From a virus, in UHGV virus genome UHGV-0073937: a DNA stretch of 22,825 bases, one strand, 5' to 3'. Made by a program: the position numbers and the translations under genes. The notes under the pieces were generated by a model, which was not told where the DNA came from, made no database searches, and saw only the letters and a program-made list of their open reading frames with translations. Below, piece after piece: positions 2,888-19,336 of this stretch; within the stretch, counting starts at the first letter, position 1; each line of letters opens with the position of its first letter.

Positions 2888-2931
2888 GCTTAGTGTCTAG
2901 TCGATGGATACTCACATATTACGGTAACATC

Positions 2932-3331: not shown

Positions 3332-3508
3332 ATGATGAACATTGAAGAGTTAAAAACAAAAACAGAAGCAGATATTTCTGAATATATAACAAAAAAAATT
3401 ATTGAGCTTAAGAAAAAGACCGGGAAAGAAGTTACCAGTATCCAGTTTACTGCACGGGAAAAAATGACTGGTCTTGAAAGCTATGATATCAAGATTGATT
3501 TAATCTAG
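3332..3508 (+). CDS. gnsB: Gns family protein (GnsA/GnsB-like)
   Basis: 58 aa MMNIEELKTKTEADISEYITKKIIELKKKTGKEVTSIQFTAREKMTGLESYDIKIDLI matches Gns family from memory; SD AGAGGA upstream. Confidence 0.8.
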   Translation: MMNIEELKTKTEADISEYITKKIIELKKKTGKEVTSIQFTAREKMTGLESYDIKIDLI

Positions 3509-4624: not shown

Positions 4625-4700
4625 GGGTCCTTTCCGGCGATCCGACAGGTTACGGGGCGGCGACCTCGCGGTTTTTCGCTATTTATGAGATTTTTTGAGG
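4625..4700 (+). other. cos: Lambda-type cos site 1 (cosQ-cosN, start of cosB); cosN GGGCGGCGACCT at 4655-4666
   Basis: Sequence CGACAGGTTACGGGGCGGCGACCTCGCGGTTTTTCGCTATTTATGA matches lambda cohesive-end region from memory; located ~220 bp upstream of Nu1-like gene. Confidence 0.85.
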
Positions 4701-4882
4701 GGGTGGTTGTTGTTTAATTGTTTGGTATATCTAATTGATAAGTAAGGTGAAAATAAAATAAATACAACAACCTTACGATGTGCTTTGATGTCATTAATGT
4801 GAAAAAATTAAATGATATCAAATGGTTTTGTAAAAACACATGGTTGTTGTATCGCTTTTTATCGATGACTTATGGAGAGGAG

Positions 4883-5389
4883 ATGGCCTTTTTATTGAAT
4901 AAAAGTGATATGGCCTCCTCCATCGGTATCTCTGTTCAGGCATTTGATAAATGGGGCGTTCCTCCTGTCGAGCGTCGGGGGAGGGAAGTTTTTTATGACG
5001 TTAAAACTGTACTGGAGATAGATCGCGAGCGGCGACAACACAATCATAGAACACCTGATGACGGGGGCGATCTGGAGGAAAGGCTGCTTCGGGCCAGAGC
5101 TGAACTGACAGAAGAACAGGCCGTAGCTCAAAAACTTAAAAATCAGGTAACCGAAGGTAAGCTCATCGATTCAGACTTCTGCGTTTTCGCCCTCAGCAAG
5201 CTGGCGATGGCATTGTCCAGTACGCTTGATTCTATTCCGTTATCCATGCAGCGACAGTTCCCGGATTTAACGCCACGTCATCTTGACCATCTGAAAACCC
5301 TTATTGCGAAGGGCGCAAATCAGTGTGCGCGGGCAGGGGATAAATTACCGGATTTGCTGGATGAATATATCAGAGCAACAACTGAATAA
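4883..5389 (+). CDS. nu1: Terminase small subunit, lambda Nu1-like (NohA-like)
   Basis: 168 aa; N-terminal HTH region (ISVQAFDKWGVPPVERRGREVFYD) and C-terminal region (FCVFALSKLAMALSSTLDSIPLSMQRQFPDL) align with lambda Nu1; overlaps terL start. Confidence 0.9.
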   Translation: MAFLLNKSDMASSIGISVQAFDKWGVPPVERRGREVFYDVKTVLEIDRERRQHNHRTPDDGGDLEERLLRARAELTEEQAVAQKLKNQVTEGKLIDSDFCVFALSKLAMALSSTLDSIPLSMQRQFPDLTPRHLDHLKTLIAKGANQCARAGDKLPDLLDEYIRATTE

Positions 5390-7289: not shown

Positions 7290-7479
7290 ACTGCAGGCGC
7301 TGCGTCAGGCGCGCCTTGATTTATTAACCGGTAAACGGGTGGTGTCTGTCCAGAAAGATGGTCGCAGAATTGAATATACGGCTGCTTCTCTGGATGAGCT
7401 TAACCGGGCGATCAATGATGCGGAGTCGGTACTGGGGACAACCCGACGTCGCCGTCGTCCGCTGGGAGTGAGGTTATGA
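7273..7479 (+). CDS. W: Head-tail joining protein, lambda gpW-like
   Basis: 68 aa; LLTGKRVVSVQKDGRRIEYTAASL resembles lambda W; overlaps terL end and portal start as in lambda. Confidence 0.8.
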   Translation: MVTVAELQALRQARLDLLTGKRVVSVQKDGRRIEYTAASLDELNRAINDAESVLGTTRRRRRPLGVRL

Positions 7480-8348
7480 AACGAACGCCTGTCCTGATTG
7501 ATGTGAACGGTGTTCCGCTTCGTGAGAGTCTCAGCTACAACGGTGGCGGCGCAGGATTTGGCGGGCAAATGGCGGAGTGGTTGCCACCGGCGCAGAGTGC
7601 CGATGCGGCCCTGCTGCCCGCGTTGCGTCTGGGGAATGCCCGGGCAGATGATCTGGTGCGCAATAACGGAATAGCGGCTAATGCGGTTGCCCTGCATAAG
7701 GATCACATTGTCGGGCATATGTTTCTGATCAGCTACCGTCCGAACTGGCGCTGGCTGGGGATGCGGGAGACCGCAGCAAAAAGCTTTGTCGATGAGGTGG
7801 AGGCGGCCTGGTCGGAATACGCCGAAGGGATGTTTGGCGAGATCGACGTGGAAGGAAAACGCACGTTCACGGAATTTATCCGTGAAGGTGTGGGCGTTCA
7901 TGCGTTTAACGGCGAAATCTTTGTGCAGCCGGTCTGGGATACAGAAACCACGCAGTTATTCCGTACGCGTTTTAAAGCTGTGAGTCCGAAACGGGTGGAC
8001 ACGCCTGGACACGGTATGGGGAACCGTTTTCTGCGGGCCGGTGTGGAGGTCGATCGATATGGCCGTGCCGTCGCGTACCATATCTGTGAGGATGATTTTC
8101 CGTTCTCTGGTAGTGGACGATGGGAACGGATCCCGCGTGAACTTCCCACCGGGCGTCCGGCCATGCTGCATATTTTCGAGCCGGTGGAGGACGGGCAGAC
8201 CCGTGGGGCTAATCAGTTTTACAGCGTCATGGAACGGCTGAAGATGCTCGATTCCCTGCAGGCAACACAGCTTCAGTCGGCCATAGTGAAGGCGATTTAT
8301 GTCTATCATCTCACCGTAGTTGCCCGCATCGTTCGCCAACTCCACTGA
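7476..8348 (+). pseudogene. B: Portal protein (lambda gpB-like) N-terminal fragment, truncated by island insertion at ~8301
   Basis: First ~275 codons collinear with lambda gpB (GNARADDLVRNNG, FEPVEDGQTRGAN, QSAIVKA); after codon AIY the frame reads into unrelated sequence and stops at 8348. Confidence 0.85.
8289..8301. repeat. Left copy of 13-bp imperfect direct repeat (AAGGCGATTTATG) = putative att core (attL)
   Basis: Matches AAGGCGATGTATG at 18579-18591 (12/13); both copies lie exactly at the breakpoint in the portal reading frame. Confidence 0.65.
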
Positions 8349-8424
8349 AACCCTTGCTGCGTCTGGAATGTCGTTTTCCATACTTTTGATGACCGTTCAT
8401 CACCCTTCCAGTTTTTCGCGGTTT

Positions 8425-8478
8425 TGTGTATTGCAATGTGTATTGCAAATTGGCGATCGGGATGGGTGTGTATTGCAA
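8425..8478. repeat. Three copies of TGTGTATTGCAA (candidate integrase arm-type binding sites) upstream of int
   Basis: Perfect 12-mers at 8425-8436, 8437-8448, 8467-8478; two related copies (GTGTATTGCA) at 18483-18506 near other island end. Confidence 0.55.
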
Positions 8479-8496
8479 ATCTCTTGAGGGCTTTTA

Positions 8497-9738
8497 ATGG
8501 CTATTGAAAACAAACTCAGTGACAAACTGTTAAAGAGTCTTGTCGGAAAACGGCAGGACAAACAAAAAACAATAGCGGATGGGCGCGGGTTGTCTGTGCG
8601 TGTAAGCATGGTTGGGGGGATCAGCTTTGTTTTTTACTATCGTCTTGGTGGCAGGGAATCCCCTCCGGTATGGCTTACACTTGGTCGCTATCCTGACATG
8701 TCTCTTGCAACGGCCAGGCGCATGCGTGATCAGTGCCGTGAATGGCTGGCTGAAAATCTGGACCCCCGCAGGCAAATAAAACTTGCTGCCGAAAAAACTA
8801 TGCAACCAGTGACCGTAAGGGATGCGCTGTTTTACTGGTACGACAATCACGCCACAACAGCCAGAAAAGAGCATGAATATTTAATAAAACGATTTGAAAA
8901 GCATATCTTCCCCTATATCGGTGATATGGCTATAGAACAGTGCAAATTACACACATGGCTTACCGTCTTTGACAGGATCAAAAAAAATGCGCCTGTTATG
9001 TCTGGTGCAATTTTTCTTGATATCAAACAGGCGTTGCGTTTTTGTCGCGTCAGGCAATACATCGCGTGCGATCCCTTTGGAGATATTAACGTAAGTTATG
9101 TCGGGGGCTCATCCGGTATAAGGGATCGCGTTCTTAATATCAATGAAACCGCTGATGTATGGTCTTATGCTTACGGTAATAATTTGCTAACTCTGTCATC
9201 AATATATAACCGAAGAATAATGGTTATCTGCCTGGTGTTTGGTTGCCGACAGCAGGAGGCGAGGCTATCCACCTGGGACGAATGGGATTTAAAAAACTGG
9301 GTATGGACAGTCCCAAAAGAGCACAGCAAAAACAAGGAGGCTATAGTAAGGCCTGTTCCTGACGGAATAAAACAATGGATCGTTAATCTTTACGCAGAAA
9401 CAAAAAATCGCGGTTATGTTGTCGGTTGTGCTTTGCAAAGGGCGACAATAACAGGGGCTGCAAACAGAATATGCAGGCGTCTTGGTCATGATACTAATGG
9501 CTTGTGGTGCATACATGATTTCAGGCGCACATTTTCCACTACGCTTAATGATATGGGGGCGGATCCTTATATTGTCGAACTTCTTTTAGGTCATAAAGTG
9601 AAAGGGGTTGCTGGTGTTTACAATAAAAGCAGGCATATAAAGAAAAAACTTGAGGTGCTTAATATGTGGGTTAATTACCTTAATACGATAGCAGGATTTA
9701 ACAACAACGTTATCGAGCTTAATAAAGAGGTGGTGTGA
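8497..9738 (+). CDS. int: Tyrosine recombinase / integrase, P4-type
   Basis: 413 aa; N-terminal arm-binding-like region (GRGLSVRVS...GGISFVFYYR); C-terminal catalytic region with HDFRRTFST...LLGH...GVYNKS; adjacent to island boundary. Confidence 0.9.
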   Translation: MAIENKLSDKLLKSLVGKRQDKQKTIADGRGLSVRVSMVGGISFVFYYRLGGRESPPVWLTLGRYPDMSLATARRMRDQCREWLAENLDPRRQIKLAAEKTMQPVTVRDALFYWYDNHATTARKEHEYLIKRFEKHIFPYIGDMAIEQCKLHTWLTVFDRIKKNAPVMSGAIFLDIKQALRFCRVRQYIACDPFGDINVSYVGGSSGIRDRVLNINETADVWSYAYGNNLLTLSSIYNRRIMVICLVFGCRQQEARLSTWDEWDLKNWVWTVPKEHSKNKEAIVRPVPDGIKQWIVNLYAETKNRGYVVGCALQRATITGAANRICRRLGHDTNGLWCIHDFRRTFSTTLNDMGADPYIVELLLGHKVKGVAGVYNKSRHIKKKLEVLNMWVNYLNTIAGFNNNVIELNKEVV

Positions 9739-9739
9739 T

Positions 9740-9997
9740 ATGGCAATTTATTCTCTTGTTGATGAAAACGATTTGCGCACAATGAAGGACATTGATCGGT
9801 TCATTCGTGAAAAAGAGTGCATAGCACTTACCACGCTGGCAAACTCAACACGCTGGAAAATGGAGCAGGCAGGTAAATTCCCGCGACGTATCAAGATCGG
9901 TGAACGTGCTGCAGGGTATCGACTTTCAGAGGTTCAGGCATGGATCCGTGGTGAGTGGCATCCTGGATGGAAACCTGGAAAAACAAAACAGCAATAA
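9740..9997 (+). CDS. alpA: AlpA-family transcriptional regulator / excisionase-like protein
   Basis: 85 aa; HTH region IALTTLANSTRWKMEQAGKFPRRIKIGERAAGYRLSEVQAWI resembles AlpA/HTH_17; start ATG overlaps int stop (coupled). Confidence 0.7.
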   Translation: MAIYSLVDENDLRTMKDIDRFIREKECIALTTLANSTRWKMEQAGKFPRRIKIGERAAGYRLSEVQAWIRGEWHPGWKPGKTKQQ

Positions 9998-10010
9998 CCA
10001 GTAAATAATG

Positions 10011-10033
10011 CCCCTCATCACGAGGGGTTTTTT
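10011..10033 (+). terminator. Rho-independent terminator (CCCCTC-ATCAC-GAGGGG + T6)
   Basis: Perfect 6-bp GC stem then TTTTTTG immediately after alpA stop. Confidence 0.7.
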
Positions 10034-10053
10034 GTCTATAAGGTAAAAACGCG

Positions 10054-10632
10054 ATGAATAAAAATATTGCCGTGACGGGCAAGGGGTACGCTCGTCCAGT
10101 GAAAAAATTCTGCGATATTCGTGATCTCGTCGTTCTGCGCTTTGATAGTGTGAACGTTCGTGTGGTGTATCTGAACGGCGATCCGTGGTTTGTTGCAAAA
10201 GATGTTTGTGCTGCGCTGGAACTAACCAATTCGCGTACGGCGTTGCAGATGCTTGATGATGATGAAAAGGGAGTAAATTTAACTTACACCCCAGGAGGAA
10301 ATCAGAATATGAGAATTATCTCTGAGTCAGGTTTCTACAAACTAATAGCCCGCAGCCGCAAAGCAACGACGCCTGGCACATTTGCTCATCGTTTCAGTAA
10401 CTGGGTATTCAGAAATGTGATACCAGGTATCAGAAAAACGGGGACTTATGGTATCCCGTGGGGTGCATTACAGGATTTTTCCCGCCGTAAAGAGCAATAT
10501 CAAATAAGTGCCAGCGAGAAGGGGAGAGAGCTACAGGCATGTAAGCGCAAAAAGCGTGAGCTGGAGGAAGAAGAAAAAACGCTGATACGTGAATATCAGC
10601 CTGAGTTTTACTTTGGTAACCGCATTCAGTGA
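10054..10632 (+). CDS. Bro-N domain protein (putative antirepressor-like)
   Basis: 192 aa; N-terminal region (VVYLNGDPWFVAKDVCAALELTNSRTALQMLDDDEKG...RIISESGFYKLIARSRKATT...FSNWVFRNVIP) typical of Bro-N; charged coiled C-terminus. Confidence 0.65.
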   Translation: MNKNIAVTGKGYARPVKKFCDIRDLVVLRFDSVNVRVVYLNGDPWFVAKDVCAALELTNSRTALQMLDDDEKGVNLTYTPGGNQNMRIISESGFYKLIARSRKATTPGTFAHRFSNWVFRNVIPGIRKTGTYGIPWGALQDFSRRKEQYQISASEKGRELQACKRKKRELEEEEKTLIREYQPEFYFGNRIQ

Positions 10633-10661
10633 CAAAACAAAGGCGACCGGGGGCGGTCGCC
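10630..10661 (-). terminator. Hairpin terminator for leftward small-gene operon (GGCGACCG-GGGG-CGGTCGCC; T-rich on minus strand)
   Basis: 8-bp perfect GC-rich stem; minus-strand downstream sequence TTTGTTTTGTC; sits between convergent genes. Confidence 0.55.
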
Positions 10662-10725
10662 AGTGGGAAAACACTAAACATAAGCACGAGGATGATAGCC
10701 GCTATCAGGTTGGTGGGCAATGTGA

Positions 10726-10935
10726 TCAGCCTGGTGGGCGGTTCCTGTTAGCTTTCATTACCCGGGGCTGTTTATTGAGAAACTCATCAAGCGCAAATTT
10801 TGTAGGCGCTGGTTCTGTATTTGGTGGCATTTGTTTAGCGTGTGCCTTTTCTTTCTGGCGTGCAACAATGCTCTGTAAAAGCAATCTTCGTTGTTCTGCG
10901 AAAATCTCTTCAGTGGATAGGTATTTTTTGCTCAT
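10726..10935 (-). CDS. Hypothetical small protein (leftward switch operon, second gene)
   Basis: 69-aa ORF downstream of 10993..11172 on same strand, followed by hairpin terminator. Confidence 0.45.
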   Translation of the reverse strand: MSKKYLSTEEIFAEQRRLLLQSIVARQKEKAHAKQMPPNTEPAPTKFALDEFLNKQPRVMKANRNRPPG

Positions 10936-10992
10936 AGTGCCGACCTGTAAAGCAATGCGCCGGAGTACCTCACACCACAGCGCTGATAGTGA

Positions 10993-11172
10993 TTATTCTT
11001 GCTCTTTAGCCTTGCGTCGCTGGCGGTATTCAACTTCTCGCTTTAATGCTGCTGTTACAAACTGCCCTGTACTTTCACCAGGCATTTTTACCGCCTCAAC
11101 ATTGTTCATAACTTCATGCGGAACCCTTGCCGCAACTGTTTGTGATTTTGCGTTTACTGCTTTTGTCGCCAT
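10993..11172 (-). CDS. Small putative DNA-binding regulator (possible RHH-type repressor), first gene of leftward operon
   Basis: 59-aa ORF derived by manual translation (below ORF-track size cut-off): MATKAVNAKSQTVAARVPHEVMNNVEAVKMPGESTGQFVTAALKREVEYRQRRKAKEQE; diverges from operator repeats. Confidence 0.45.
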   Translation of the reverse strand: MATKAVNAKSQTVAARVPHEVMNNVEAVKMPGESTGQFVTAALKREVEYRQRRKAKEQE

Positions 11173-11222
11173 GTTGTGTACCCCTCACAAAAAACAAATG
11201 CAGTATGCAGGAAAAAAAACAA

Positions 11223-11274
11223 GTGTTCAACACTTGACGTGTTCAACACCTGGGTTTAAATTGGTGTTCAACAC
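11223..11274. promoter_or_regulatory. Operator/promoter region: three perfect copies of near-palindromic 11-mer GTGTTCAACAC with candidate rightward sigma70 promoter
   Basis: Copies at 11223-11233, 11239-11249, 11264-11274; TTGACG (11234-11239) and TTTAAAT (11255-11261) fit -35/-10 with ~16-nt spacer; lies between divergent operons. Confidence 0.65.
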
Positions 11275-11371
11275 CTTGTTGGTGCAAGGTGCAGAAACGA
11301 CGAAACCCGGCAGTGCGCTAACACTAACCGGGCTTCTAACCACCAACGATAGCAACAGTATCGAGGTAGCT

Positions 11372-11575
11372 ATGAGAAATCATACCACACACCCGCAAGG
11401 GCGGGGCTCGCACAACCTGAATAAATACATCTGGCGTTTTATCGCCCTGAGCACCGCACAACCACGCGTAATACACATCGAGGCCGCCAGCGAACAGGAA
11501 GCCCGGCTGCAATCCCCAACTGGCTGCGTGATGATATTCGCCGCCCGTATTCGTCAGGAGGTATGCCGTGCTTAA
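11372..11575 (+). CDS. Small protein, first gene of rightward operon (possibly Icd-like)
   Basis: 67 aa from ATG 11372 with SD GAGG; MRNHTTHPQGRGSHNLNKYIWRFIALSTAQPRVIHIEAASEQEARLQSPTGCVMIFAARIRQE; family assignment from memory only. Confidence 0.45.
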   Translation: MRNHTTHPQGRGSHNLNKYIWRFIALSTAQPRVIHIEAASEQEARLQSPTGCVMIFAARIRQEVCRA

Positions 11576-11753
11576 AACCTTTCGTGTATTTGCTCGTGCG
11601 GTTAACCCACTAGGCCACACAATTGGTATCGCTCAGAACGTGAAGGCTGTTAATGTTCAGACGGCTATTGCTGCGGTGAGAAGCGAATCATCAGAATATG
11701 GCTTATCACAAGTCATTATCTCAGCAGTGTATGAATTAAAAGAGGTGCATTAA
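11568..11753 (+). CDS. Hypothetical protein
   Basis: 61-aa ORF; start overlaps upstream stop (coupled), part of tightly packed operon. Confidence 0.4.
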   Translation: MLKTFRVFARAVNPLGHTIGIAQNVKAVNVQTAIAAVRSESSEYGLSQVIISAVYELKEVH

Positions 11754-11944
11754 TGCAGGAAATTACATTACACGAAGCCGCTGAACGTGCGCACCAGACA
11801 GAAATTGTTTGCCGCCTTCTTGAGTTATACCCGAACAAAATTACAGATGCTGATATATCCGCGCTGGCGAGCCTACTGGCGCGCCTTTCGGGAAGTGTCG
11901 CTAGTTTCCTGATTGAGGAAGAAAGTAAGCTGGTGGGGGATTAA
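11753..11944 (+). CDS. Hypothetical protein
   Basis: 63-aa ORF; ATG overlaps previous stop (TAATG). Confidence 0.4.
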   Translation: MQEITLHEAAERAHQTEIVCRLLELYPNKITDADISALASLLARLSGSVASFLIEEESKLVGD

Positions 11945-12166
11945 ATGAATACAGAACGAGAAGTCTTTTTTAAATTGTTAGCATGTGCAGAGAGTTCATT
12001 AACTTTAAATAATTCAGCAAAAGCAATATTAAATATGTGGCTTGATTGCATAAATGACAATGAAGATGCAAATATTGCTTATGGCCTGTTGTCACTTATT
12101 GATGAAGCAGCAGAGAAACTTAATGACACAATAAATAGTGCCCTGCTATCAAATAAGTCGAGTTAA
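11945..12166 (+). CDS. Hypothetical protein
   Basis: 73-aa ORF; start overlaps previous stop; AT-rich codon usage suggests separate origin. Confidence 0.4.
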   Translation: MNTEREVFFKLLACAESSLTLNNSAKAILNMWLDCINDNEDANIAYGLLSLIDEAAEKLNDTINSALLSNKSS

Positions 12167-12183
12167 GTCGAAGAATAAATAAT

Positions 12184-12483
12184 ATGGAAATGAAAAATTC
12201 TGGCTTTATTGCCAGCGGCCCCGCTCGGCCTGAATTTATGAACGGCGATATTTACCGCGATAAATACGGCGGCACGGTAACGATTAAAGGCGTGGCAGAA
12301 CGGCGCATCACTTACCGCCGTGAGGGGTATAGCTATGACTGCGTGATGCCTGTTTATCAGTTCCGGCGTGATTTTTCCCTGGTATATGCCGCACCCCGCA
12401 GTAAGCCCATCAGCAGGGAAAAAGCGCGGGGAAACATCCAGAAAATGAAAAGCATGATTAACGCATTCAGGGGCAAAAAATGA
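12184..12483 (+). CDS. Hypothetical protein
   Basis: 99-aa ORF; stop overlaps start of replication protein (ATGA). Confidence 0.45.
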   Translation: MEMKNSGFIASGPARPEFMNGDIYRDKYGGTVTIKGVAERRITYRREGYSYDCVMPVYQFRRDFSLVYAAPRSKPISREKARGNIQKMKSMINAFRGKK

Positions 12484-14231
12484 AACTGGCACCGAACTTA
12501 AAAAAACAGCCACGCGACAGACTGACAGAGGTAATCATCTTTGCAGGTAGTGATGCGTGGAGCCATGCGAAAGAGTGGCAGGAATGGGCGGGTAAACATA
12601 TTGCCGCCGACGATGTGCCGCCTGTCGTGCTGGCTGATGAGCAACTGAAAAACATCACCGATTACCGGATCATTGATGAAGATCGTCAGTGTGTGCGTGT
12701 TTACCGCGCAGGACATATCACAGAGCACAGCATGACGCAGATTGTTACGTTACTGGCTGTGGCTGGAGTGAAGACCGTACACGAATACGCGGGGATTACT
12801 GACACCAGCCCAGTGGATTTATCCGACCAGTTGCCGCGACTCAAAGAGGAATGCGAGCGTGGGGAAAGTCTGGTGCTTAATCTTCCGACGAAGCAAAAGG
12901 CGCAACTTTCACAGATGGCAGACAGTGAACGTGCACAACTACTTGCCGATCGCTTTGATGGTGTGTGTGTTCATGCAGAAAGTGAAATCGTCCACGTATG
13001 GCGCGGCGGGGTATGGTGTCCGGTCAGCACAATGGAGCTGAGCCGCGAAATGGTGGCGATCTATTCAGAGCACAGGGCCACGTTCAGCAAACGTGTAATC
13101 AATAACGCCGTGGAAGCGTTAAAAGTTATTGCCGACCCCATGGGGGAGCCGTCCAGTGATTTGCTACCGTTCACTAATGGTGTGCTTAACCTGAAAACGG
13201 GAGAATTTTCTCCGCACTCGCCGGAGCACTGGAGCACCACGCACAATGGCATTGAGTACACGCCACCAGTAGCAGGGGAAAACATCCGCGATAATGCGCC
13301 AAATTTCCATAAATGGCTTGAACATGCTGCAGGAAAAGACCCGCGCAAGATGATGCGTATATGTGCCGCGTTATACATGATTATGGCGAACCGCTACGAC
13401 TGGCAGATGTTCATTGAGGCCACCGGAGACGGGGGAAGCGGAAAGAGCACATTTACCCATATTGCCACCCTGCTTGCTGGCAAACAGAACACCGTAAGCG
13501 CAGAGATGACATCACTCGATGATGCAGGTGGGCGCGCGCAGGTTGTCGGGAGTCGTCTTATCGTCCTTGCCGATCAGCCGAAATATACGGGTGAAGGCAC
13601 TGGCATCAAGAAAATCACGGGAGGCGATCCCGTCGAAATTAACCCGAAATATGAGAAGCGATTCACGACGATAATAAGGGCGGTGGTACTGGCGACCAAT
13701 AACGACCCTATGATCTTTACCGAACGGGCCGGAGGTGTGTCACGCCGTCGGGTGATTTTCCGGTTCGACAACATTGTAAGGGAGGACGAAAAAGACAAGG
13801 AATTACCGGAAAAGATAGCGGCAGAAATCCCCGTAATTATCCGCCGCTTGCTGGCTAACTTTGCTGACCCTGAAAAGGCACGAGCTTTACTACTGGAACA
13901 GCGAGACGGTGATGAAGCTCTGGCAATAAAGCAGCAAACGGATCCGGTTGTTGAGCTTTGCGCGGCGCTGGAGTTTCTGGAGGAAGCTCGTGGGCTAATG
14001 ATGGGCGGTGGTGGTGACTCCGTGAAGTACACGACCAGAAACAGCCTTTACCGTGTCTATATGGCCTTCATGGCATACACAGGAAAGGGGAAATGTTTGA
14101 GCGTGAATGAGTTCGGAAAGGCTATGAGGTCAGCGGCGAAAGTTTACGGATATGAATATATTACTCGAAAAGTTAAGGGAGTCACGCAGACCAACGCAAC
14201 GACTACTGATGATTGCGATGCGTTTTTATAA
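12480..14231 (+). CDS. Replication protein: primase C-terminal/D5-N domain with SF3-type P-loop NTPase (pri-rep-like)
   Basis: 583 aa; Walker A GDGGSGKST, downstream Walker B-like RLIVLADQ; architecture typical of P4-alpha/PICI pri-rep proteins; followed by iterons. Confidence 0.8.
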   Translation: MKLAPNLKKQPRDRLTEVIIFAGSDAWSHAKEWQEWAGKHIAADDVPPVVLADEQLKNITDYRIIDEDRQCVRVYRAGHITEHSMTQIVTLLAVAGVKTVHEYAGITDTSPVDLSDQLPRLKEECERGESLVLNLPTKQKAQLSQMADSERAQLLADRFDGVCVHAESEIVHVWRGGVWCPVSTMELSREMVAIYSEHRATFSKRVINNAVEALKVIADPMGEPSSDLLPFTNGVLNLKTGEFSPHSPEHWSTTHNGIEYTPPVAGENIRDNAPNFHKWLEHAAGKDPRKMMRICAALYMIMANRYDWQMFIEATGDGGSGKSTFTHIATLLAGKQNTVSAEMTSLDDAGGRAQVVGSRLIVLADQPKYTGEGTGIKKITGGDPVEINPKYEKRFTTIIRAVVLATNNDPMIFTERAGGVSRRRVIFRFDNIVREDEKDKELPEKIAAEIPVIIRRLLANFADPEKARALLLEQRDGDEALAIKQQTDPVVELCAALEFLEEARGLMMGGGGDSVKYTTRNSLYRVYMAFMAYTGKGKCLSVNEFGKAMRSAAKVYGYEYITRKVKGVTQTNATTTDDCDAFL

Positions 14232-14239
14232 AAAATGGC

Positions 14240-14480
14240 AATGGTTATCTACCTTGTCTACCTGACTGAAAGAAAATACTTTTATTTCAATGTATTAATG
14301 CAGGTAGATAACTATTTTTCACTGTCTACCTGTTATCTACCTTATCTACCCATTTTTGTAGACAGGTAAGGAGACGGGTAGAGATGAGGTAGACAGCTAT
14401 TTGGGGCTGTCTACCTCCCTGAAACCCGCGCCATTACTGGCCTGATAACTAATCAGGTAGACAAGGTAGACAAGGTGGTG
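14240..14480. repeat. Iteron array (>=10 copies of GGTAGACA / TATCTACC in both orientations) = putative origin of replication
   Basis: e.g. TTATCTACCTTGTCTACC, CAGGTAGATAAC, CTGTCTACCTGTTATCTACCTTATCTACC, GGTAGACAAGGTAGACAAGG; non-coding, directly downstream of rep gene. Confidence 0.75.
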
Positions 14481-14520
14481 GCGCACAAAAAACTTTTTAA
14501 ACGAGGGGGTAAAAATAAAA

Positions 14521-14778
14521 ATGCACACATCAGGAAAACTGAACAAACATATAAAGCCACATTATCGCGCCCTTGATATGGCTGAACACTGGCTAAGGGT
14601 GGCGATTAAGGCAATAGACCGCAACGCCGGGGAAGGATACGCGAAAGCACATCCCGAACTGATAAGCGCATTCATGACAACGGCGGCTGCAAACTTTGCC
14701 GCGCTGACCGAACGGGAGATTGCCGAAGCGGAGGAAGTGACAACCATCAATATTAAGTCCGGAGAGCAGGCAGCTTGA
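14521..14778 (+). CDS. Hypothetical protein
   Basis: 85-aa ORF; stop overlaps SSB start. Confidence 0.45.
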   Translation: MHTSGKLNKHIKPHYRALDMAEHWLRVAIKAIDRNAGEGYAKAHPELISAFMTTAAANFAALTEREIAEAEEVTTINIKSGEQAA

Positions 14779-15224
14779 CGGCGCAAATAGCAGCTTACGG
14801 GCGGCTGGTGGACGACCCACAGGTAAAACATACCAGCAAGGGAGCACCCATGACACTGGCACGGATGACGGTATCTTTGCCATGCAGCCAGGCAGATGAC
14901 GGAACGGCGACGATGTGGTTATCTGTCCTGGCGTTTGGCAGACAAGCCGACGCGCTGGCAAAGCATCACAAAGGCGAACTCCTGAGCGTGGCGGGTAATA
15001 TGCAGGTGAGCCAGTGGAGCGGACAGAACGGGGAAACGCGGCAGGGCTGGCAGGTTATCGCAGACAGCGTAATCAGTGCCAGAACGGTGCGACCGGGCGG
15101 CAAAAAAGGTCAACAGGGGCAGGCTACTGATGCACTGAACAGAGCAAAACAACAGGCAGATCAGCAAGGAAGCCATCCACCAGTGGGAGATAATGAGCAA
15201 TGGGGAGATGATATTCCGTTTTAA
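14775..15224 (+). CDS. ssb: Single-stranded DNA-binding protein homologue (SSB-like, TTG start)
   Basis: 149 aa; OB-fold-like N-terminus; Gln/Gly-rich linker; C-terminal acidic tip GDDIPF matching the SSB DDDIPF tail; SD GGAGAG 8 nt upstream of TTG. Confidence 0.75.
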   Translation: MTAQIAAYGRLVDDPQVKHTSKGAPMTLARMTVSLPCSQADDGTATMWLSVLAFGRQADALAKHHKGELLSVAGNMQVSQWSGQNGETRQGWQVIADSVISARTVRPGGKKGQQGQATDALNRAKQQADQQGSHPPVGDNEQWGDDIPF

Positions 15225-15243
15225 ATTCTGCAAACAAAAAGAT

Positions 15244-15268
15244 GCCGGAAAAAAATAGATTTTCCGGC
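15244..15268. terminator. Hairpin (GCCGGAAAA...TTTTCCGGC), possible terminator after ssb
   Basis: 9-bp inverted repeat; T-run better on minus strand so orientation ambiguous. Confidence 0.4.
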
Positions 15269-15435
15269 ATGCTACATAAATCCCGACCAAAGGAAGTAAA
15301 TACATTAACACGAATTATCAGCACTGAAGTTGTCACGGCATATTTTATACAACATTGCACTTGGTTGCATGTATTCGCATAGCAGACATCGGTAATAGAA
15401 TATATTCACAATTATTTGTAATGAATGTAAAGAGG

Positions 15436-16482
15436 ATGAGTATGGTTGATTTATATTCGCCTACACAGCTTGTGCAGGTGGCTAATGCTGAAGATGTGCA
15501 AAAAAAATTAAATGCGTTGTTTACCAGTTTGTTTTTCACTCGCTCGGTAATGTTTGAATCGAGAGACATTATTCTTGATACGATCGACGATCCAAATATC
15601 CCGATCGCGGCGTTTTGCTCTCCTATGGTGGGCAGTAAAGTTTCACGAGATGAGGGATACGAATCAAAAACAATTCGCCCTGGCTATATGAAACCGAAAA
15701 GCAGCATTGATCCAAATAAGTTAGCTGTGCGCCCTGCTGGTGTATCACCTGAACAATACAATGCTTTTGGGGCGCGTAATATTAAAGTTAAACAGGCGAT
15801 TGTAAATCAGGCTAAAGCTATACGTGCACGTATTGAATGGCTTGCTGTTCAGGCAATCACAACGGGGAAAAATATCATTGAGGGCGATGGTATTGAACGT
15901 TATGAACTGGACTGGAATATAAAACCACAAAATATTATCACGCAGTCTGGCGGTGCTGAGTGGTCAGGTAAGGATAAAGAAACTTTTGATCCAAATGATG
16001 ATATTGAGAGCTACGCAGAATTTAGTGAGGGCGTCACTAATATCATCATTATGGGCGGTAATGTATGGAAGAAATACCGTTCATTCAGAGCGATAAAAGA
16101 GGCTCTGGATACCCGCCGTGGTTCTAATTCCGAACTGGAAACGGCCCTTAAAGACCTTGGTGATTCGGTGAGTTTTAAAGGGTATATGGGCGATGTTGCG
16201 ATTGTTGTTTACAGCGGACGTTATACCGACGAGGACGGAACTGAAAAACATTTCCTTGATCCTGATTTGATGGTGCTTGGCAATACGGCTCTTCAGGGGA
16301 TTGTCGCCTATGGCGGTATTCAGGATCCGGAGCTAATCCGAATGGGGCTGACTAAAGCCGAACTTGCACCGAAAAACTATATTGTGCCTGGTGATCCGGC
16401 TATTGAATATGTGCAGACACATTCAGCACCACAGCCAATACCGGCCCGCATCAATCGTTTTGTTACCGTTCGCATTGGCTAA
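15436..16482 (+). CDS. Major capsid protein, divergent lambda gpE homologue (island-encoded)
   Basis: 348 aa; collinear similarity with lambda E across C-terminal two-thirds (NIITQSGGAEWSGKDKETFDPNDDIE, DTRRGSNSELETALKDLG, YMGDVAIVVYSG, LMVLGNTA, VPGDPAIE); start MSMVDLY parallels lambda MSMYTTA; start could be 15442. Confidence 0.85.
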   Translation: MSMVDLYSPTQLVQVANAEDVQKKLNALFTSLFFTRSVMFESRDIILDTIDDPNIPIAAFCSPMVGSKVSRDEGYESKTIRPGYMKPKSSIDPNKLAVRPAGVSPEQYNAFGARNIKVKQAIVNQAKAIRARIEWLAVQAITTGKNIIEGDGIERYELDWNIKPQNIITQSGGAEWSGKDKETFDPNDDIESYAEFSEGVTNIIIMGGNVWKKYRSFRAIKEALDTRRGSNSELETALKDLGDSVSFKGYMGDVAIVVYSGRYTDEDGTEKHFLDPDLMVLGNTALQGIVAYGGIQDPELIRMGLTKAELAPKNYIVPGDPAIEYVQTHSAPQPIPARINRFVTVRIG

Positions 16483-16491
16483 GGGGGAGCA

Positions 16492-16833
16492 ATGGCTACT
16501 CATTACACTGAACTCATGGCTGGCACTGAAGCACTGGTGACTACGCTGGGGATATTTTCAGCTAATAAAGGGGTAATTCCTGCATTTACGCCACTGATGC
16601 AGGAAGATGCAACAGGTGCACTGGTGGTATGGGATGGTTCGAGCGTAGGTAAAGCGGTTTATGTTTCCGCTGTACAAATCGACACAGCGAAAAAAACACA
16701 GGCACAGGTTTATAAGACAGGTGTTTTAAATGTTGATGCTCTGAACTGGCCTGAGTCTGTAAAAGAACTGTCGGCAAAGGTTGCCGCGTTTGTTGGCTCA
16801 GGTATTTCTGTTCAGCCGCTGGCTCGTGTGTAA
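16492..16833 (+). CDS. Head decoration protein, divergent lambda gpD homologue (island-encoded)
   Basis: 113 aa; VVWDGSSVGKAVYVSAVQIDT...YKTGVLNVDALNWPES parallels lambda [22 protein letters not shown]...[16 protein letters not shown]; strong SD AAGGGGGAG. Confidence 0.75.
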   Translation: MATHYTELMAGTEALVTTLGIFSANKGVIPAFTPLMQEDATGALVVWDGSSVGKAVYVSAVQIDTAKKTQAQVYKTGVLNVDALNWPESVKELSAKVAAFVGSGISVQPLARV

Positions 16834-16844
16834 AGGGGGATACA

Positions 16845-17228
16845 ATGCAGAATCATTACAATGACCTTAAGCCAATTGCCGAAATGATGTATCCGGATCC
16901 AGCAGTAGAGGAATTAAAGGCTATTGCTGACAAAATGCGTTTAAGTGAACGCCTTGTTGATATGAATCAGGTGATGGAACTTACTACCCTTAGCCGTCGC
17001 ACATTGCTAAACCTTGAGGCTCGCGGAGAGTTCCCCGAACGCGTACAGGTTACGGAAGGGCGTAAGGCCTGGTATTTAAGTGAAGTGATCGACTGGATAA
17101 ACAATATTCCTCGATCTTCTGAATATTGCCGCGTACCTGTCCCAAAAAAGCCAGATGCGGCGCTATGCCTCAAGATTGAGCGTGTACGTCGCAATGCACG
17201 GGATGGTCGCTATAAGTTGATTGGTTGA
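16845..17228 (+). CDS. AlpA-like HTH domain protein immediately upstream of island cos
   Basis: 127 aa; central HTH resembling AlpA/HTH_17 (MNQVMELTTLSRRTLLNLEARGEFPERVQVTEGRKAWYLSEVIDWI); strong SD. Confidence 0.55.
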   Translation: MQNHYNDLKPIAEMMYPDPAVEELKAIADKMRLSERLVDMNQVMELTTLSRRTLLNLEARGEFPERVQVTEGRKAWYLSEVIDWINNIPRSSEYCRVPVPKKPDAALCLKIERVRRNARDGRYKLIG

Positions 17229-17254
17229 TGAAATTAGGGCCCGTTCTGGCTGGC

Positions 17255-17330
17255 GGGTCCTTTCCGGCGATCCGGTAGGCTACGGGGCGGCGACCTTGCG
17301 GGTTTTCGCTATTTATGAGCCTTTTTCGGG
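17255..17330 (+). other. cos: Lambda-type cos site 2 (island cos): cosN GGGCGGCGACCT at 17285-17296
   Basis: ~65 bp (17255-17319) near-identical to 4625-4688 including cosQ/cosN; downstream cosB-equivalent sequence differs from cos 1. Confidence 0.8.
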
Positions 17331-17429
17331 TGCTGGTGGTGGTTTTGTTGTTCGCTCTATCTCTATGAATAAAAAGGAAAAGATAAAGCCAATACACCAA
17401 CCTGAAACATTACTTAAGTGGGGATATTG

Positions 17430-17972
17430 ATGAAATCGCACCTGATGAACAAAAAAAACATGGCGCAAAGCTGCCGTGTAAGTGCGACAGCGTTCGACAA
17501 GTGGGGAGTGACTCCCGTTGAACGTAAAGGCCGCGAGGCGTTTTATGATGTTGCCAGCGTAATAGACAATCGGGTTAGCAATGCAATTAACCAGATTACA
17601 GACGACAAAGGCGAGATTGATGATGATGAACTCCTACGAGTCAGGATCAGATTGCTGACAGCACAGGCAGAGGCGCAGGAGCTTAAAAACGAGCGCGAAC
17701 GCGGCGACGTTATTGATACAGCGTTTTGTATATACGTGCTTTCAAAATTGGCGAGTCAGATTTCTTCAATCATGGACAGCCTGCCGCTTGCCATGACAAG
17801 GAAGTTTCCCGACATGAAGCCGTCTATGCTGGATGGACTGAAAAAAGAAGTTATCAGAGCCTGTAACGCATGCGCAAAACTTGACGAAAACATACCGCTG
17901 ATGCTGTCCGATTATCTGATGGAAACTGCCGGAAACGTACCGGATAAGTTGCAGCCGAATAAAGATAAGTAA
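17430..17972 (+). CDS. Terminase small subunit, divergent Nu1-like (island-encoded)
   Basis: 180 aa from ATG 17430; homologous to 4883..5389 product and lambda Nu1 (ATAFDKWGVTPVERKGREAFYDV; AFCIYVLSKLASQISSIMDSLPLAMTRKFPDM) but clearly divergent. Confidence 0.85.
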   Translation: MKSHLMNKKNMAQSCRVSATAFDKWGVTPVERKGREAFYDVASVIDNRVSNAINQITDDKGEIDDDELLRVRIRLLTAQAEAQELKNERERGDVIDTAFCIYVLSKLASQISSIMDSLPLAMTRKFPDMKPSMLDGLKKEVIRACNACAKLDENIPLMLSDYLMETAGNVPDKLQPNKDK

Positions 17973-17983
17973 CGTAGTACGCT

Positions 17984-18286
17984 ATGACTGAATCCGAAAT
18001 ACTGCGATTAATCCGCCGTGCTTGTGGAATCAGCAAGCAGCATGACGAACAGGCCACGCAGCCGGACAGCGTGACCGCAGATAATTATGTGCGTGTAGTG
18101 GCTGAGGTGATGCGCCGTGACGGTATTGAGCTTAACGGCGTGGATATGCGCAACATACGAACAAGAGTCCTTGAGTTGCTGGCATATCGTCGCCGTAATG
18201 ATGATTCAGCCCACCAGCCAAATCAGCACAGCAACGACAGAATAGCCCGACACAGAAAAACCACGAATATGGGGTTTTTGTTATGA
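17984..18286 (+). CDS. Hypothetical protein (last island gene)
   Basis: 100-aa ORF; Arg-rich; no recognised motif. Confidence 0.4.
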   Translation: MTESEILRLIRRACGISKQHDEQATQPDSVTADNYVRVVAEVMRRDGIELNGVDMRNIRTRVLELLAYRRRNDDSAHQPNQHSNDRIARHRKTTNMGFLL

Positions 18287-18482
18287 CATGGTCATGATGA
18301 CCACTCATACAAAACAGGTAAAGCCCACCAGCCTGATTAAAGGTTAACCGGAAAAAAGCCAGGTATCCAATCTCGATATGGGGATCCCTATATCGACATT
18401 AACGCCCACTAAAACTGTGCATATATGCATAGAAAAAGCATCCACCAGCTTTATGACGGATGCCGCTCATCTTATAAATAAT

Positions 18483-18506
18483 CGTGTATTGCAGTGTGTA
18501 TTGCGA
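18483..18506. repeat. Two copies of GTGTATTGCA-type repeat near right island end (candidate arm sites)
   Basis: CGTGTATTGCAGTGTGTATTGCGA; same motif as 8425-8478. Confidence 0.5.
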
Positions 18507-18578
18507 CTCCTTTAAACGATAGGTCTGAGCATTCGTAATGTACTGTTTTTAAATTTTATTTTTTCCTGTCTTTTCATA

Positions 18579-18591
18579 AAGGCGATGTATG
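18579..18591. repeat. Right copy of 13-bp direct repeat (AAGGCGATGTATG) = putative att core (attR)
   Basis: 12/13 match to 8289-8301; portal reading frame (KAMYAATIESEL) resumes exactly here. Confidence 0.65.
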
Positions 18592-19336
18592 CCGCCACCA
18601 TTGAGAGTGAGCTGGATACGCAGTCAGCGATGGATTTTATTCTGGGCGCGAACAGTCAGGAGCAGCGGGAAAGGCTGACCGGCTGGATTGGTGAAATTGC
18701 CGCGTATTACGCCGCAGCACCGGTCCGGCTGGGAGGCGCAAAAGTGCCGCACCTGATGCCGGGTGACTCACTGAACCTGCAGGCTACTCCGTGTTTGAGC
18801 AGTCACTGCTGCGGTATATCGCTGCCGGGCTGGGTGTCTCGTATGAGCAGCTTTCCCGGAATTACGCCCAGATGAGCTACTCCACGGCACGGGCCAGCGC
18901 GAACGAGTCGTGGGCGCACTTTATGGGGCGGCGAAAATTCGTCGCATCCCGTCAGGCGAGTCAGATGTTTCTGTGCTGGCTGGAAGAGGCCATCGTTCGC
19001 CGCGTGGTGACGTTACCTTCAAAAGCGCGCTTCAGTTTTCAGGAAGCCCGTAGTGCCTGGGGGAACTGCGACTGGATAGGCTCCGGTCGTATGGCCATCG
19101 ATGGTCTGAAAGAAGTTCAGGAAGCGGTGATGCTGATAGAAGCCGGACTGAGCACCTACGAGAAAGAGTGCGCGAAACGCGGTGACGACTATCAGGAAAT
19201 TTTTGCCCAGCAGGTCCGTGAAACGATGGAGCGCCGCGCGGCTGGTCTTAAACCGCCCGCCTGGGCGGCTGAGGCATTTGAATCCGGGCTGCGACAATCA
19301 ACAGAGGAGGAGAAGAGTGACAGCAGAGCTGCGTAA
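18579..19336 (+). pseudogene. B: Portal protein (lambda gpB) C-terminal fragment, additionally frameshifted near 18767-18790
   Basis: MYAATIESELDTQSAMDFILGANSQEQRERLTGWIGEIAAYY... then frame change; second frame continues VFEQSLLRYIAAGLGVSYEQL... to the overlap with C; matches lambda gpB C-terminus. Confidence 0.85.

What the first reader, a model, noticed from the sequence alone, without database searches (positions are those of the whole stretch)
16845..17228. AlpA-like HTH protein encoded immediately upstream of the island cos
A 127-aa protein with an AlpA/HTH_17-like DNA-binding core and additional N- and C-terminal extensions lies between the island capsid genes and cos 2. Its position suggests a role in packaging-site recognition or late-gene control rather than excision (a separate alpA-like gene sits next to int).
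Basis: inference. Interest (0 to 1): 0.5.

Follow-up and report, generated by a model that had tools for sequence, protein, structure and literature searches.

The report
Satellite late-module AlpA-like regulator gene
A small DNA-binding protein of the AlpA/excisionase type is the fixed third gene of the capsid gene block of a phage satellite that sits inside a prophage; it most likely controls that block's own promoter rather than recognising the packaging site. This is plausible but untested.

Summary
Window 16845-17228 (+) is a real 127-aa gene with an AlpA/excisionase winged-helix core (residues ~36-88) and conserved N- and C-terminal extensions. It lies between the island capsid and decoration genes and a lambda-type cos (cosN 17285-17296). 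A second alpA sits next to int.

The island is a helper-embedded PICI that splits the helper portal gene, a published configuration. The protein defines a compact Enterobacteriaceae satellite subfamily, present in about 7% of complete E. coli genomes and absent from deposited phage genomes.

It is always the third gene of a capsid–decoration–HTH triad. It co-varies with that triad, not with integrase, replicase, the int-proximal AlpA, or TerS/cosB type.

The triad's promoter carries 3-5 direct repeats of TT(G/A)(C/T)AC at a 10-bp period, 23-25 nt upstream of a -10 box. The array is unique in the window and conserved across about ten genera.

Best reading (confidence about 0.5): a late-module transcription regulator that binds this array, like PrtN on P boxes. 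Binding is inferred, not shown.

A packaging-site role is not supported, though not excluded, and an excisionase role is unlikely. Interest is moderate.

The parts
16845..17228 (+). Target gene: 127-aa AlpA-family winged-helix protein with N-terminal (1-35) and C-terminal (89-127) extensions. It is the third gene of the capsid-decoration-HTH triad.
15345..15379 (+). Direct-repeat array: TTATAC 15345-15350, TTGCAC 15355-15360, TTGCAT 15365-15370, and a degenerate TTCGCA 15374-15379 that doubles as a weak -35. Period 10 bp. This is the proposed operator of the target protein.
   Evidence: Sequence. It is the only such array in the window, with 0.015 expected in shuffles, and there is none in the helper prophage. 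It is conserved in every island that carries the gene, across about 10 genera and 26 further promoter variants.
15396..15401 (+). -10-like hexamer TAGAAT of the late (capsid) promoter. Most other islands have TGnTAGCAT, an extended -10.
   Evidence: Promoter scan gives TTCGCA-16-TAGAAT. The gap from the proximal repeat is fixed at 23-25 nt in 14 of 14 promoter variants, while the spacer sequence itself is not conserved.
15242..15270 (.). Perfect 11-bp stem hairpin between the SSB gene and the late promoter. G+C-rich terminator hairpins occupy the same place in other islands. It marks the late module as a separate transcription unit.
   Evidence: the alignment shows equivalent hairpins in L008 and L010-L012.
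15442..16482 (+). Island major-capsid (lambda gpE-like) gene, first gene of the triad. The true start is ATG 15442, not the TTG 15355 listed mechanically.
   Evidence: PF03864 at 5e-41 and phrog_29. PGAP start in L001. 42% identical to the helper capsid.
16492..16833 (+). Island head-decoration (lambda gpD-like) gene, second gene of the triad.
   Evidence: PF02924 at 4e-15 and phrog_49.
17236..17261 (+). Stem-loop immediately after the target's stop codon. Its 3' arm is the start of cosQ. It is terminator-like.
   Evidence: Fold of -20 kcal/mol. Equivalent hairpins with different stem sequences occur in other genera, and clean terminators occupy the same place in EcCICFT073 and Cedecea.
17255..17403 (+). 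Island cos: cosQ-like 17255-17265, cosN 17285-17296, and conserved CGCTATTTATGAG at 17308-17320. Candidate cosB repeats are CTGGTGGTGGTTTTGTTGTT (17333-17352) and CAATACACCAACC (17390-17402).
17430..17972 (+). Island Nu1-like small terminase, 46% identical to the helper TerS (4778-5389).
   Evidence: PF07471 at 3.5e-24 and phrog_57 at 3.4e-51.
9740..9997 (+). Int-proximal AlpA, the canonical PICI activator/RDF candidate and a paralogue of the target.
   Evidence: PF05930 at 5.4e-14; 33% identity to the target.

Best explanation
The gene encodes the dedicated transcription regulator of the island's morphogenesis (late) module.

Proposed mechanism: several copies bind head-to-tail, through the AlpA/Xis-type winged helix, to the 3-5 direct repeats TT(G/A)(C/T)AC spaced 10 bp apart. 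These lie at about -63 to -38 (plus a degenerate repeat over -35) of the promoter in front of the capsid gene. From there the protein controls transcription of capsid, decoration and its own gene. With read-through of the cosQ hairpin it may also control TerS. Given the poor -35 and the fixed class-II-like geometry, activation (positive autoregulation) is the most likely mode.

The first molecules would come from basal extended -10 activity, or from read-through from upstream: AlpA-driven early transcription, or in this helper-embedded island the helper's Q-modified late transcription.

Shown: the family, fold and gene linkage; the array, its uniqueness, conservation and geometry.

Inferred: that this protein is what binds the array, the sign of regulation, and the source of the first molecules.

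For: (2) Module linkage. In every context examined the order is capsidE(346 aa)-HDPD(113 aa)-HTH with near-identical spacing. Against the window, HTH identity (53-86%) follows capsid identity (75-94%). Integrases are only 25-50% identical and replicases 40-44% or of other families.

(3) The array. It is unique in the window (0.015 expected) and absent from about 58 kb of helper prophage. It is present upstream of the capsid gene in all 13 diverse islands and in 26 further promoter variants. The hexamers are conserved while the 3-4-nt spacers and flanks vary, and the gap to the -10 box is fixed at 23-25 nt.

(4) The int-proximal AlpA proteins of these islands are 15-65% identical, with different recognition helices. 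The target's helix TTLSRRTLL(N/D)(L/M)E is nearly invariant. The most divergent members (Serratia SRQTI, Buttiauxella) have variant hexamers (TTAGAC/TTGTGC, TTATAC).

(5) The array is not the replication origin. Iterons lie just 3' of the replicase gene and change with replicase type.

(6) Precedent. PrtN activates pyocin genes through P boxes: four 10-11-nt repeats of ATTGnn(n)GTnn(n), 60-100 bp upstream of the SD (PMC4905994). Proteins annotated as PrtN are among the fold neighbours.

(7) The alternative EcCICFT073-type late module lacks this gene. It carries a PerC-family activator gene just upstream of its own, different promoter.
Against: - No binding or expression data exist.
- Co-occurrence of gene and array is largely shared ancestry of one module, so it is not independent evidence. 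Of 62 array-bearing IMG/VR loci, 58 have the gene, but most are near-identical E. coli sequences.
- The covariation signal rests on two or three divergent lineages only. The metagenome scan found no members more distant than about 50% identity.
- An activator encoded downstream of the promoter it activates needs an external trigger, which is not identified.
- EcCICFT073, which lacks the gene, has faint TTGC-like elements (TTGCAA...TTGCTC-N4-TGCAAT) before its late operon.
- The functions of the N- and C-terminal extensions are unexplained.
Confidence: 0.5

Rival explanations
1. Packaging accessory acting at cos. The protein would bind near cosQ/cosN or the terminase. It might help terminase initiate or terminate on the short island genome, or bridge the terminase-DNA complex to island-type procapsids (gpFI-like), or partner with TerS (Rpp-like).
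Against: - The island has a full TerS with its own winged helix and plausible cosB repeats.
- The HTH is invariant while TerS/cosB vary. Only 25 of 53 loci have this TerS. IAI39 has a lambda-type cosB and no TerS. Serratia and Cedecea have a different cosB.
- Only cosQ/cosN are common to all, and the helper shares them, so binding there would give no specificity.
- There is no repeat motif at cos.
- In Pluralibacter a 131-aa ORF lies between the gene and cos.
- There is no sequence similarity to RppA/RppC, and the domain order differs.
- Similarity to excisionases is much stronger than to TerS or Rpp.
Confidence: 0.12
2. The protein is a regulator, but the array is bound by something else (int-proximal AlpA, a helper factor or a host factor). 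Its real targets would lie elsewhere, for example repression of helper or host genes as interference, or negative feedback on early island genes.
For: Satellite regulators that act on helper genes are known, such as CapR of PLE as cited in PMC10111431. A PICI-encoded regulator acts on host virulence genes in PMC11773190. The binder of the array is not established.
Against: - Int-proximal AlpA proteins vary greatly while the array is constant.
- Helpers differ: lambda-like tails in E. coli, and P2-like baseplate genes next to the Buttiauxella island.
- This helper has no annotated CII, and the geometry does not fit CII sites (established knowledge of pRE).
- No array was found in about 58 kb of helper.
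Confidence: 0.15
3. A second recombination directionality factor (excisionase) for the island, with the int-proximal AlpA serving as the transcription activator.
Against: - The gene is about 7 kb from int and 1.3 kb from attR. It sits inside the capsid operon and is inherited with it.
- It is the same protein in islands using at least five different integrase/att types: portal, capsid E, cspD-clpS, fis, and a site near rpoD.
- The att-flanking doubled motif GTGTATTGCA occurs only in helper-embedded islands, not in chromosomal PICIs that carry the same gene.
Confidence: 0.08

Closest known systems
AlpA / excisionase-type winged-helix proteins (Pfam PF05930 Phage_AlpA), including the int-proximal AlpA that activates Gram-negative PICIs (EcCICFT073; PMC6092414) and the GIsul2 excisionase (PDB 8c3t)
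   Same: Same domain family by sequence and predicted fold. Encoded by a phage satellite. PICI AlpA is an activator of island transcription.
   Different: - It is not next to int but is the last gene of the capsid operon.
- It has about 35 extra N-terminal and about 40 extra C-terminal residues that are conserved.
- It is only 33% identical to the island's own AlpA.
- It co-varies with the capsid module rather than with int.
- Its role has not been studied. No paper in the searched library mentions the three RefSeq accessions or the PHROG id searched.
PrtN and the P box of Pseudomonas aeruginosa pyocin genes
   Same: A small winged-helix activator of phage-derived structural genes. The operator is about four direct repeats of 10-11 nt beginning ATTG, 60-100 bp upstream of the SD (PMC4905994). 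Here there are 3-5 repeats (A/T)TTGCAC at a 10-bp period, about 62-97 nt upstream of the capsid ATG. Proteins annotated as PrtN appear among the fold neighbours.
   Different: There is no sequence-level membership: no Pfam PyocinActivator hit at E<=0.1. The repeat consensus is different. prtN lies outside the operons it activates and is controlled by PrtR, whereas this gene lies inside the operon. Binding here is only inferred.
Rpp (redirecting phage packaging) proteins of EcCICFT073-type PICIs (PMC6739421)
   Different: There is no sequence similarity. In Rpp the winged helix is N-terminal, followed by a coiled-coil dimeriser, and its gene lies downstream of cos in the slot that TerS occupies here. 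This island has a complete TerS, so redirection of the helper TerS is not needed.
Helper-embedded PICIs (HE-PICIs; PMC10111431)
   Same: The host element in this window is one. It is integrated co-directionally in a lambdoid late gene (portal), has the int/AlpA-Bro-replication-late zone order, and has the doubled att-flanking motif.
   Different: That paper counts Phage_AlpA only as an integration-zone signature. It does not describe a late-zone paralogue or its promoter array.

Membership tests
Pfam Phage_AlpA (PF05930) / excisionase-like winged helix | Sequence match above the curated gathering score | tested here: met
   35 bits against a cut-off of 21, residues 36-85. Precomputed PF05930 on nearly all homologues.
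Pfam Phage_AlpA (PF05930) / excisionase-like winged helix | Strand-helix-helix-wing-helix fold, as in solved AlpA/Xis structures | tested here: met
Recombination directionality factor (excisionase) of the island | Gene linked to, and co-evolving with, the cognate integrase/att | tested here: not met
   The gene is about 7 kb from int. HTH identity follows the capsid, not Int (25-50% identity), across five or more att types.
Recombination directionality factor (excisionase) of the island | Binding sites in the att arms; stimulation of excision | not testable with these tools
   There is no repeat array near att. The att-flanking GTGTATTGCA motif is specific to the HE-PICI integrase clade. This needs an excision assay.
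PICI master activator AlpA (EcCICFT073 type) | Position immediately downstream of int in the integration zone | tested here: not met
   That position is occupied by a different AlpA at 9740-9997.
PICI master activator AlpA (EcCICFT073 type) | Required for island induction; activates PalpA | not testable with these tools
   This needs genetics.
Rpp (redirecting phage packaging) | Sequence homology to RppA/B/C | tested here: not met
   phmmer against the PDB, which includes 6HLK and 6HN7, at E<=10 finds only 8c3t. BLASTP against RppA gives no alignment.
Rpp (redirecting phage packaging) | N-terminal winged helix followed by a C-terminal coiled-coil dimerisation domain; gene downstream of cos | tested here: not met
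   The winged helix is central (36-88) and the gene is upstream of cos. For the Rpp layout.
Rpp (redirecting phage packaging) | Heterocomplex with the helper TerS | not testable with these tools
   This needs a two-hybrid or pull-down assay.
PrtN-type activators (Pfam PyocinActivator) | Sequence match to the family profile | tested here: not met
   No hit at E<=0.1 in Pfam. There is only fold-level similarity.
PrtN-type activators (works-like comparison) | Operator of about four direct repeats with a 10-11-nt period, 60-100 bp upstream of the regulated gene | tested here: inconclusive
   An array of that design is present and conserved. That this protein binds it is inferred only.
Helper-embedded PICI (host element) | Co-oriented integration inside a prophage late gene, int-AlpA-Bro-replication-late order, doubled att-flanking motif | tested here: met
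   The portal gene is split at 8348 and 18585. Gene order. Motifs at 8425-8480 and 18484-18508. Criteria from PMC10111431.

The most novel reading that the evidence does not exclude
The protein is not, or not only, a transcription factor but a cos-proximal packaging factor. It would be an AlpA-fold protein that acts with terminase at the conserved cosQ/cosN-hairpin region. It could let terminase stop at closely spaced cos sites of a 10-kb genome, or couple the terminase-DNA complex to procapsids built with the island's own capsid protein, as a functional analogue of lambda gpFI. This would be a third satellite packaging-redirection strategy, besides satellite TerS and Rpp.
Probability: 0.1. 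Interest if true: 0.7.

Novelty: new variant of a known kind. Interest (0 to 1): 0.35.

Why it matters
How Gram-negative PICIs time the expression of their capsid, decoration and terminase genes is not known. The role of those capsid homologues is also unclear: deleting them in EcCICFT073 had no phenotype (PMC6092414).

A dedicated, satellite-specific regulator with a defined candidate operator would give a direct experimental handle on the late module of a PICI type found in about 7% of complete E. coli genomes and in many other Enterobacteriaceae. It would also show that PICIs use a two-tier cascade of AlpA paralogues, one early and one late.

If the regulator reading is wrong and the protein acts at cos, it would be a new packaging-hijack mechanism. 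Either way the gene is a useful marker, because it separates this late module from the EcCICFT073/Rpp module.

Tried and rejected
- **P. aeruginosa AlpA as a model (Q-like antiterminator).** Rejected. That protein is an eight-helix protein with a C-terminal HTH and an RNA-exit-channel ring (PMC9371919). The shared name is a coincidence, and no such N-terminal ring is predicted here.
- **Helper CII binding TTGC-N6-TTGC.** Rejected. The TTGC core is not invariant (TTAT, TTGT and TTAG variants). The array lies about 14 bp further upstream than CII sites do. This helper has a YdaT-type gene where cII would be.
- **Sigma-54 promoter (TGGCAC-N5-TTGCA look-alike).** Rejected because the essential GG is absent.
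- **Array as replication origin.** Rejected. Iterons lie just 3' of the replicase gene and change with replicase type.
- **The 137-aa c1501 in the same slot of EcCICFT073 as a hidden homologue.** Rejected. BLASTP gives no alignment. It weakly matches the scaffold end of the head protease instead.
- **First AF2 run with 20 close homologues.** It gave a poor model (pLDDT 51.6). It was repeated with 54 more diverse sequences.
- **Searches for more divergent members.** The genome-contig scan returned only 4 loci. The metagenome scan returned no family members below about 70% identity apart from generic AlpA proteins. The helix/operator covariation test therefore stays underpowered.
- **No hits.** NCBIfam gave no hit. 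tblastn against deposited phage genomes gave no hit.
- **Repeats upstream of the int-proximal alpA of two chromosomal PICIs.** Nothing comparable was found.

Full report
**1. The observation**

Window 16845-17228 (+) is an ATG-to-TGA ORF of 127 codons. A strong ribosome-binding site precedes it, 11 nt after the stop of the upstream gene. The product scores 35 bits on Pfam Phage_AlpA (cut-off 21; residues 36-85) and E=2.4e-48 on phrog_2790. Its only solved-structure relative by sequence is 8c3t, the AlpA-family excisionase of GIsul2 (E=8e-11).

A first AF2 model from 20 close homologues was poor (pLDDT 51.6). A second, from 54 more diverse sequences, reached pLDDT 78.7, with the core above 90. 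It shows helices 8-15 and 19-32, then the winged helix (strand 37-38, helices 40-47 and 51-60, wing 67-77, helix 78-86), a low-confidence linker, and helix 105-119.

**2. The surroundings**

The window is the late region of a lambdoid prophage. It runs cos at 4655, Nu1-like TerS, gpA, W and portal, and later the protease, D and E. A 10-kb island interrupts the portal gene.

The island carries, in order:
- int (8497-9738), an int-proximal AlpA (9740-9997) and a Bro-N gene;
- DUF4222 and a D5-type primase, followed by ori iterons, a small ORF and SSB;
- a gpE-like capsid gene (15442-16482) and a gpD-like decoration gene (16492-16833);
- the target gene, a second lambda-type cos (cosN 17285-17296), a Nu1-like TerS (17430-17972) and a small ORF.

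E. coli A0 34/86 has the same arrangement in a prophage integrated at icd. This is the helper-embedded PICI configuration described by PMC10111431. That paper does not mention a late-zone AlpA paralogue.

**3. The family**

Homologues are almost all 127 aa long and 50-100% identical. They come from Escherichia, Enterobacter, Citrobacter, Klebsiella aerogenes, Salmonella, Pluralibacter, Trabulsiella, Kosakonia, Kluyvera, Superficieibacter, Cedecea, Scandinavium, Buttiauxella and Serratia.

The gene is present in 408 of 5426 complete E. coli genomes. It is absent from 50,697 deposited phage genomes. The metagenome scan found nothing between this compact family and generic AlpA proteins.

The winged-helix core is nearly invariant. 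The C-terminal tail (C.VP.P.KP....L.LK.ER.RR) is moderately conserved and the N-terminus is more variable.

**4. Synteny**

In every locus examined the gene is the third gene of a capsidE(346 aa)-HDPD(113 aa)-HTH triad with almost identical spacing. These loci are:
- the helper portal here and in A0 34/86;
- helper capsid genes in IAI39 and Enterobacter;
- the cspD-clpS site in two E. coli strains;
- the fis site in Serratia;
- a site near rpoD in Pluralibacter;
- Buttiauxella, and metagenomic contigs.

Compared with the window, HTH identity (53-86%) follows capsid identity (75-94%). Integrases are 25-50% identical. Replicases are 40-44% identical or of other families (AAA_25, DUF927). The gene therefore belongs to the morphogenesis module, not to the integration or replication modules.

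**5. Relation to cos and TerS**

A cos (cosQ-like box, cosN, CGCTATTTAYGAG) follows the stop codon by 26-80 nt in all islands but one. In Pluralibacter a 131-aa ORF intervenes and cos lies 470 nt downstream.

What follows cos varies. It is this Nu1-like TerS in only 25 of 53 IMG/VR loci. In IAI39 there is a lambda-type cosB with no TerS and a TIR-domain gene. Serratia and Cedecea have other cosB sequences and other genes.

In the window the TerS is 46% identical to the helper TerS. Its own candidate cosB repeats (GGTGGTGGT / ACACCAACC) differ subtly from the helper's (GGTTGTTGT / ACAACAACC). Packaging specificity therefore already has an obvious agent. The target does not co-vary with cosB type, and the only cos elements common to all islands are shared with the helper.

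In EcCICFT073 the slot after the decoration gene holds an unrelated 137-aa protein (c1501), and RppA sits where TerS sits here. An island with tetA inserted in c1501 still transfers (PMC6092414). Because c1501 is not a homologue, this says nothing direct about the target.

**6. A conserved operator-like array**

Aligning the region upstream of the capsid gene from 11 islands carrying the triad revealed 3-5 direct repeats of TT(G/A)(C/T)AC at a 10-bp period. The EcCICFT073 sequence included in the same alignment as a comparison does not show them.

In the window these are TTATAC 15345, TTGCAC 15355, TTGCAT 15365 and a degenerate TTCGCA 15374 that serves as a weak -35. TAGAAT follows at 15396.

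The evidence that the array is a functional element:
- It is the only one of its kind in the window (0.015 expected in shuffles). None occurs in about 58 kb of the helper prophage.
- In 14 distinct promoter variants the gap between the proximal repeat and the -10 box is 23-25 nt, although the gap sequence is not conserved. Most variants have an extended -10 (TGnTAGCAT).
- 26 further variants from metagenomes show conserved hexamers with variable 3-4-nt spacers.
- A hairpin or terminator separates this promoter from the replication genes.
- The array is not the origin. Iterons lie immediately 3' of the replicase gene and change with replicase type: AGGTAGAC here, AAGTGGGTA with AAA_25, GGTGGGAC with DUF927.

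Searching IMG/VR with the array pattern returned 118 matching stretches. Of the 62 usable loci among those returned, 60 have the capsid gene about 97-111 nt downstream and 58 have the target gene. The exceptions are an IS insertion, a capsid-capsid recombinant and two chance matches in one unrelated phage.

**7. Who binds the array?**

The int-proximal AlpA proteins of these islands are only 15-65% identical and have different recognition helices. The target's helix is nearly invariant. Helpers differ between hosts.

The most divergent family members carry variant hexamers. Serratia (helix SRQTILDME) has TTAGAC/TTGTGC. Buttiauxella (LLDME) has TTATAC.

Tandem direct repeats with a helical-turn period are the operator type of this fold class. 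From established knowledge this holds for lambda Xis and BldC. PrtN is a documented parallel: its P box is four 10-11-nt repeats of ATTGnn(n)GTnn(n), 60-100 bp upstream of the SD of phage-derived structural genes (PMC4905994). Proteins annotated as PrtN are among the fold neighbours.

The alternative EcCICFT073-type late module, found in 457 E. coli genomes, lacks this gene. It has a PerC-family activator gene immediately upstream of a different promoter. That is consistent with each late module carrying its own regulator.

I therefore propose that the target is the late-module regulator acting on this array, probably as an activator. The repeats abut a poor -35 with class-II-like geometry.

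This step is inference. No binding or expression data exist, and co-occurrence mostly reflects inheritance of one module. The covariation rests on few lineages. EcCICFT073 has faint TTGC-like elements despite lacking the gene.

**8. Rivals**

- A packaging role at cos is not excluded but has no positive evidence beyond adjacency (section 5).
- An excisionase role is unlikely because the gene does not follow the integrase or att type. The att-flanking GTGTATTGCA motifs (8425-8480, 18484-18508) occur only in helper-embedded islands.
- The P. aeruginosa 'AlpA' antiterminator is an unrelated protein.
- CII, sigma-54 and origin readings of the array were rejected (see the section on what was tried and rejected).

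**9. Novelty and interest**

The element type, the AlpA family and the Rpp/TerS packaging strategies are all published. The gene is routinely annotated as an AlpA-family or HTH regulator.

What seems undescribed is the satellite-specific late-zone paralogue with its extensions, its strict membership of the capsid-decoration triad, and the conserved promoter array. No paper in the searched library mentions the three RefSeq accessions or the PHROG id searched. SatelliteFinder notes only that some satellites have two regulatory genes.

This is a new variant of a known kind. Interest is moderate: it is a clean, testable hypothesis about PICI late-gene control rather than a surprise.

Noticed in passing
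window 7476-8348 and 18585-19336; island about 8400-18550: The island splits the helper prophage portal gene and is co-oriented with it, which is a helper-embedded PICI. The same arrangement occurs in E. coli A0 34/86, where the helper is integrated at icd. The configuration is published (PMC10111431).
   Followed up: partly
window 8425-8450, 8468-8480 and 18484-18508: The motif GTGTATTGCA is doubled (12-bp period) upstream of int and again near attR. This is the 'doubled motif' of the HE-PICI paper. It shares the core ATTGCA with the capsid-promoter repeats. It is absent from chromosomal PICIs that carry the same HTH gene, so it probably belongs to the integrase.
   Followed up: partly
window 17236-17261: A stem-loop lies right after the target's stop codon, and its 3' arm is the first bases of cosQ. 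Hairpins with different stem sequences occupy the same place in other genera. Clean Rho-independent terminators sit there in EcCICFT073 and Cedecea. It may terminate the late operon before cos, or matter for cosQ function.
   Followed up: partly
window 4700-4775 versus 17330-17403: The helper and island cos share cosQ, cosN and the CGCTATTTATGAG box. They differ in candidate cosB repeats: helper GGTTGTTGT/ACAACAACC, island GGTGGTGGT/ACACCAACC. The two Nu1-like TerS proteins are 46% identical. This looks like a matched pair of packaging specificities within one prophage.
   Followed up: partly
window 14240-14475: A dense set of direct and inverted AGGTAGAC iterons lies immediately 3' of the primase gene and is the likely island origin. 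Islands with other replicases have other iterons at the same place (AAGTGGGTA, GGTGGGAC).
   Followed up: partly
L005 (E. coli CFT073) 4960-8655: The EcCICFT073 late module differs. It runs a PerC-family activator gene, a small ORF, capsid, decoration, c1501, cos, RppA and a small ORF. c1501 (137 aa) weakly matches the scaffold end of the head protease, phrog_53. This module is in 457 complete E. coli genomes; the module studied here is in 366-408.
   Followed up: partly
L002 (E. coli IAI39) 10385-12125: A sister island in the helper capsid gene keeps capsid, decoration and HTH. It has a lambda-type cosB (R3/R2/R1-like) and no TerS, and carries a TIR-domain gene on the opposite strand, a probable defence cargo. 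Its int is interrupted by IS3 and its primase has an internal stop.
   Followed up: no
L053 (IMG/VR) 2259-3470: This is a hybrid capsid gene. The island promoter and N-terminal part are joined to the helper capsid C-terminal part and helper downstream genes. Apparently recombination between the island and helper capsid genes deleted decoration, HTH and cos.
   Followed up: no
window 17221-17430 (+) and 15355-15441: Two mechanical ORF artefacts were seen. A 69-codon TTG ORF spanning cos is annotated as a hypothetical protein in some genomes (for example L004 10300-10509). The TTG 15355 start of the capsid ORF would read through the repeat array; the real start is ATG 15442.
   Followed up: partly
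window 17984-18286: A 100-aa ORF after TerS (phrog_1561, unknown function) is conserved at the island's right end in many islands, including EcCICFT073 (93 aa at L005 8374-8655). Its function is unknown.
   Followed up: no
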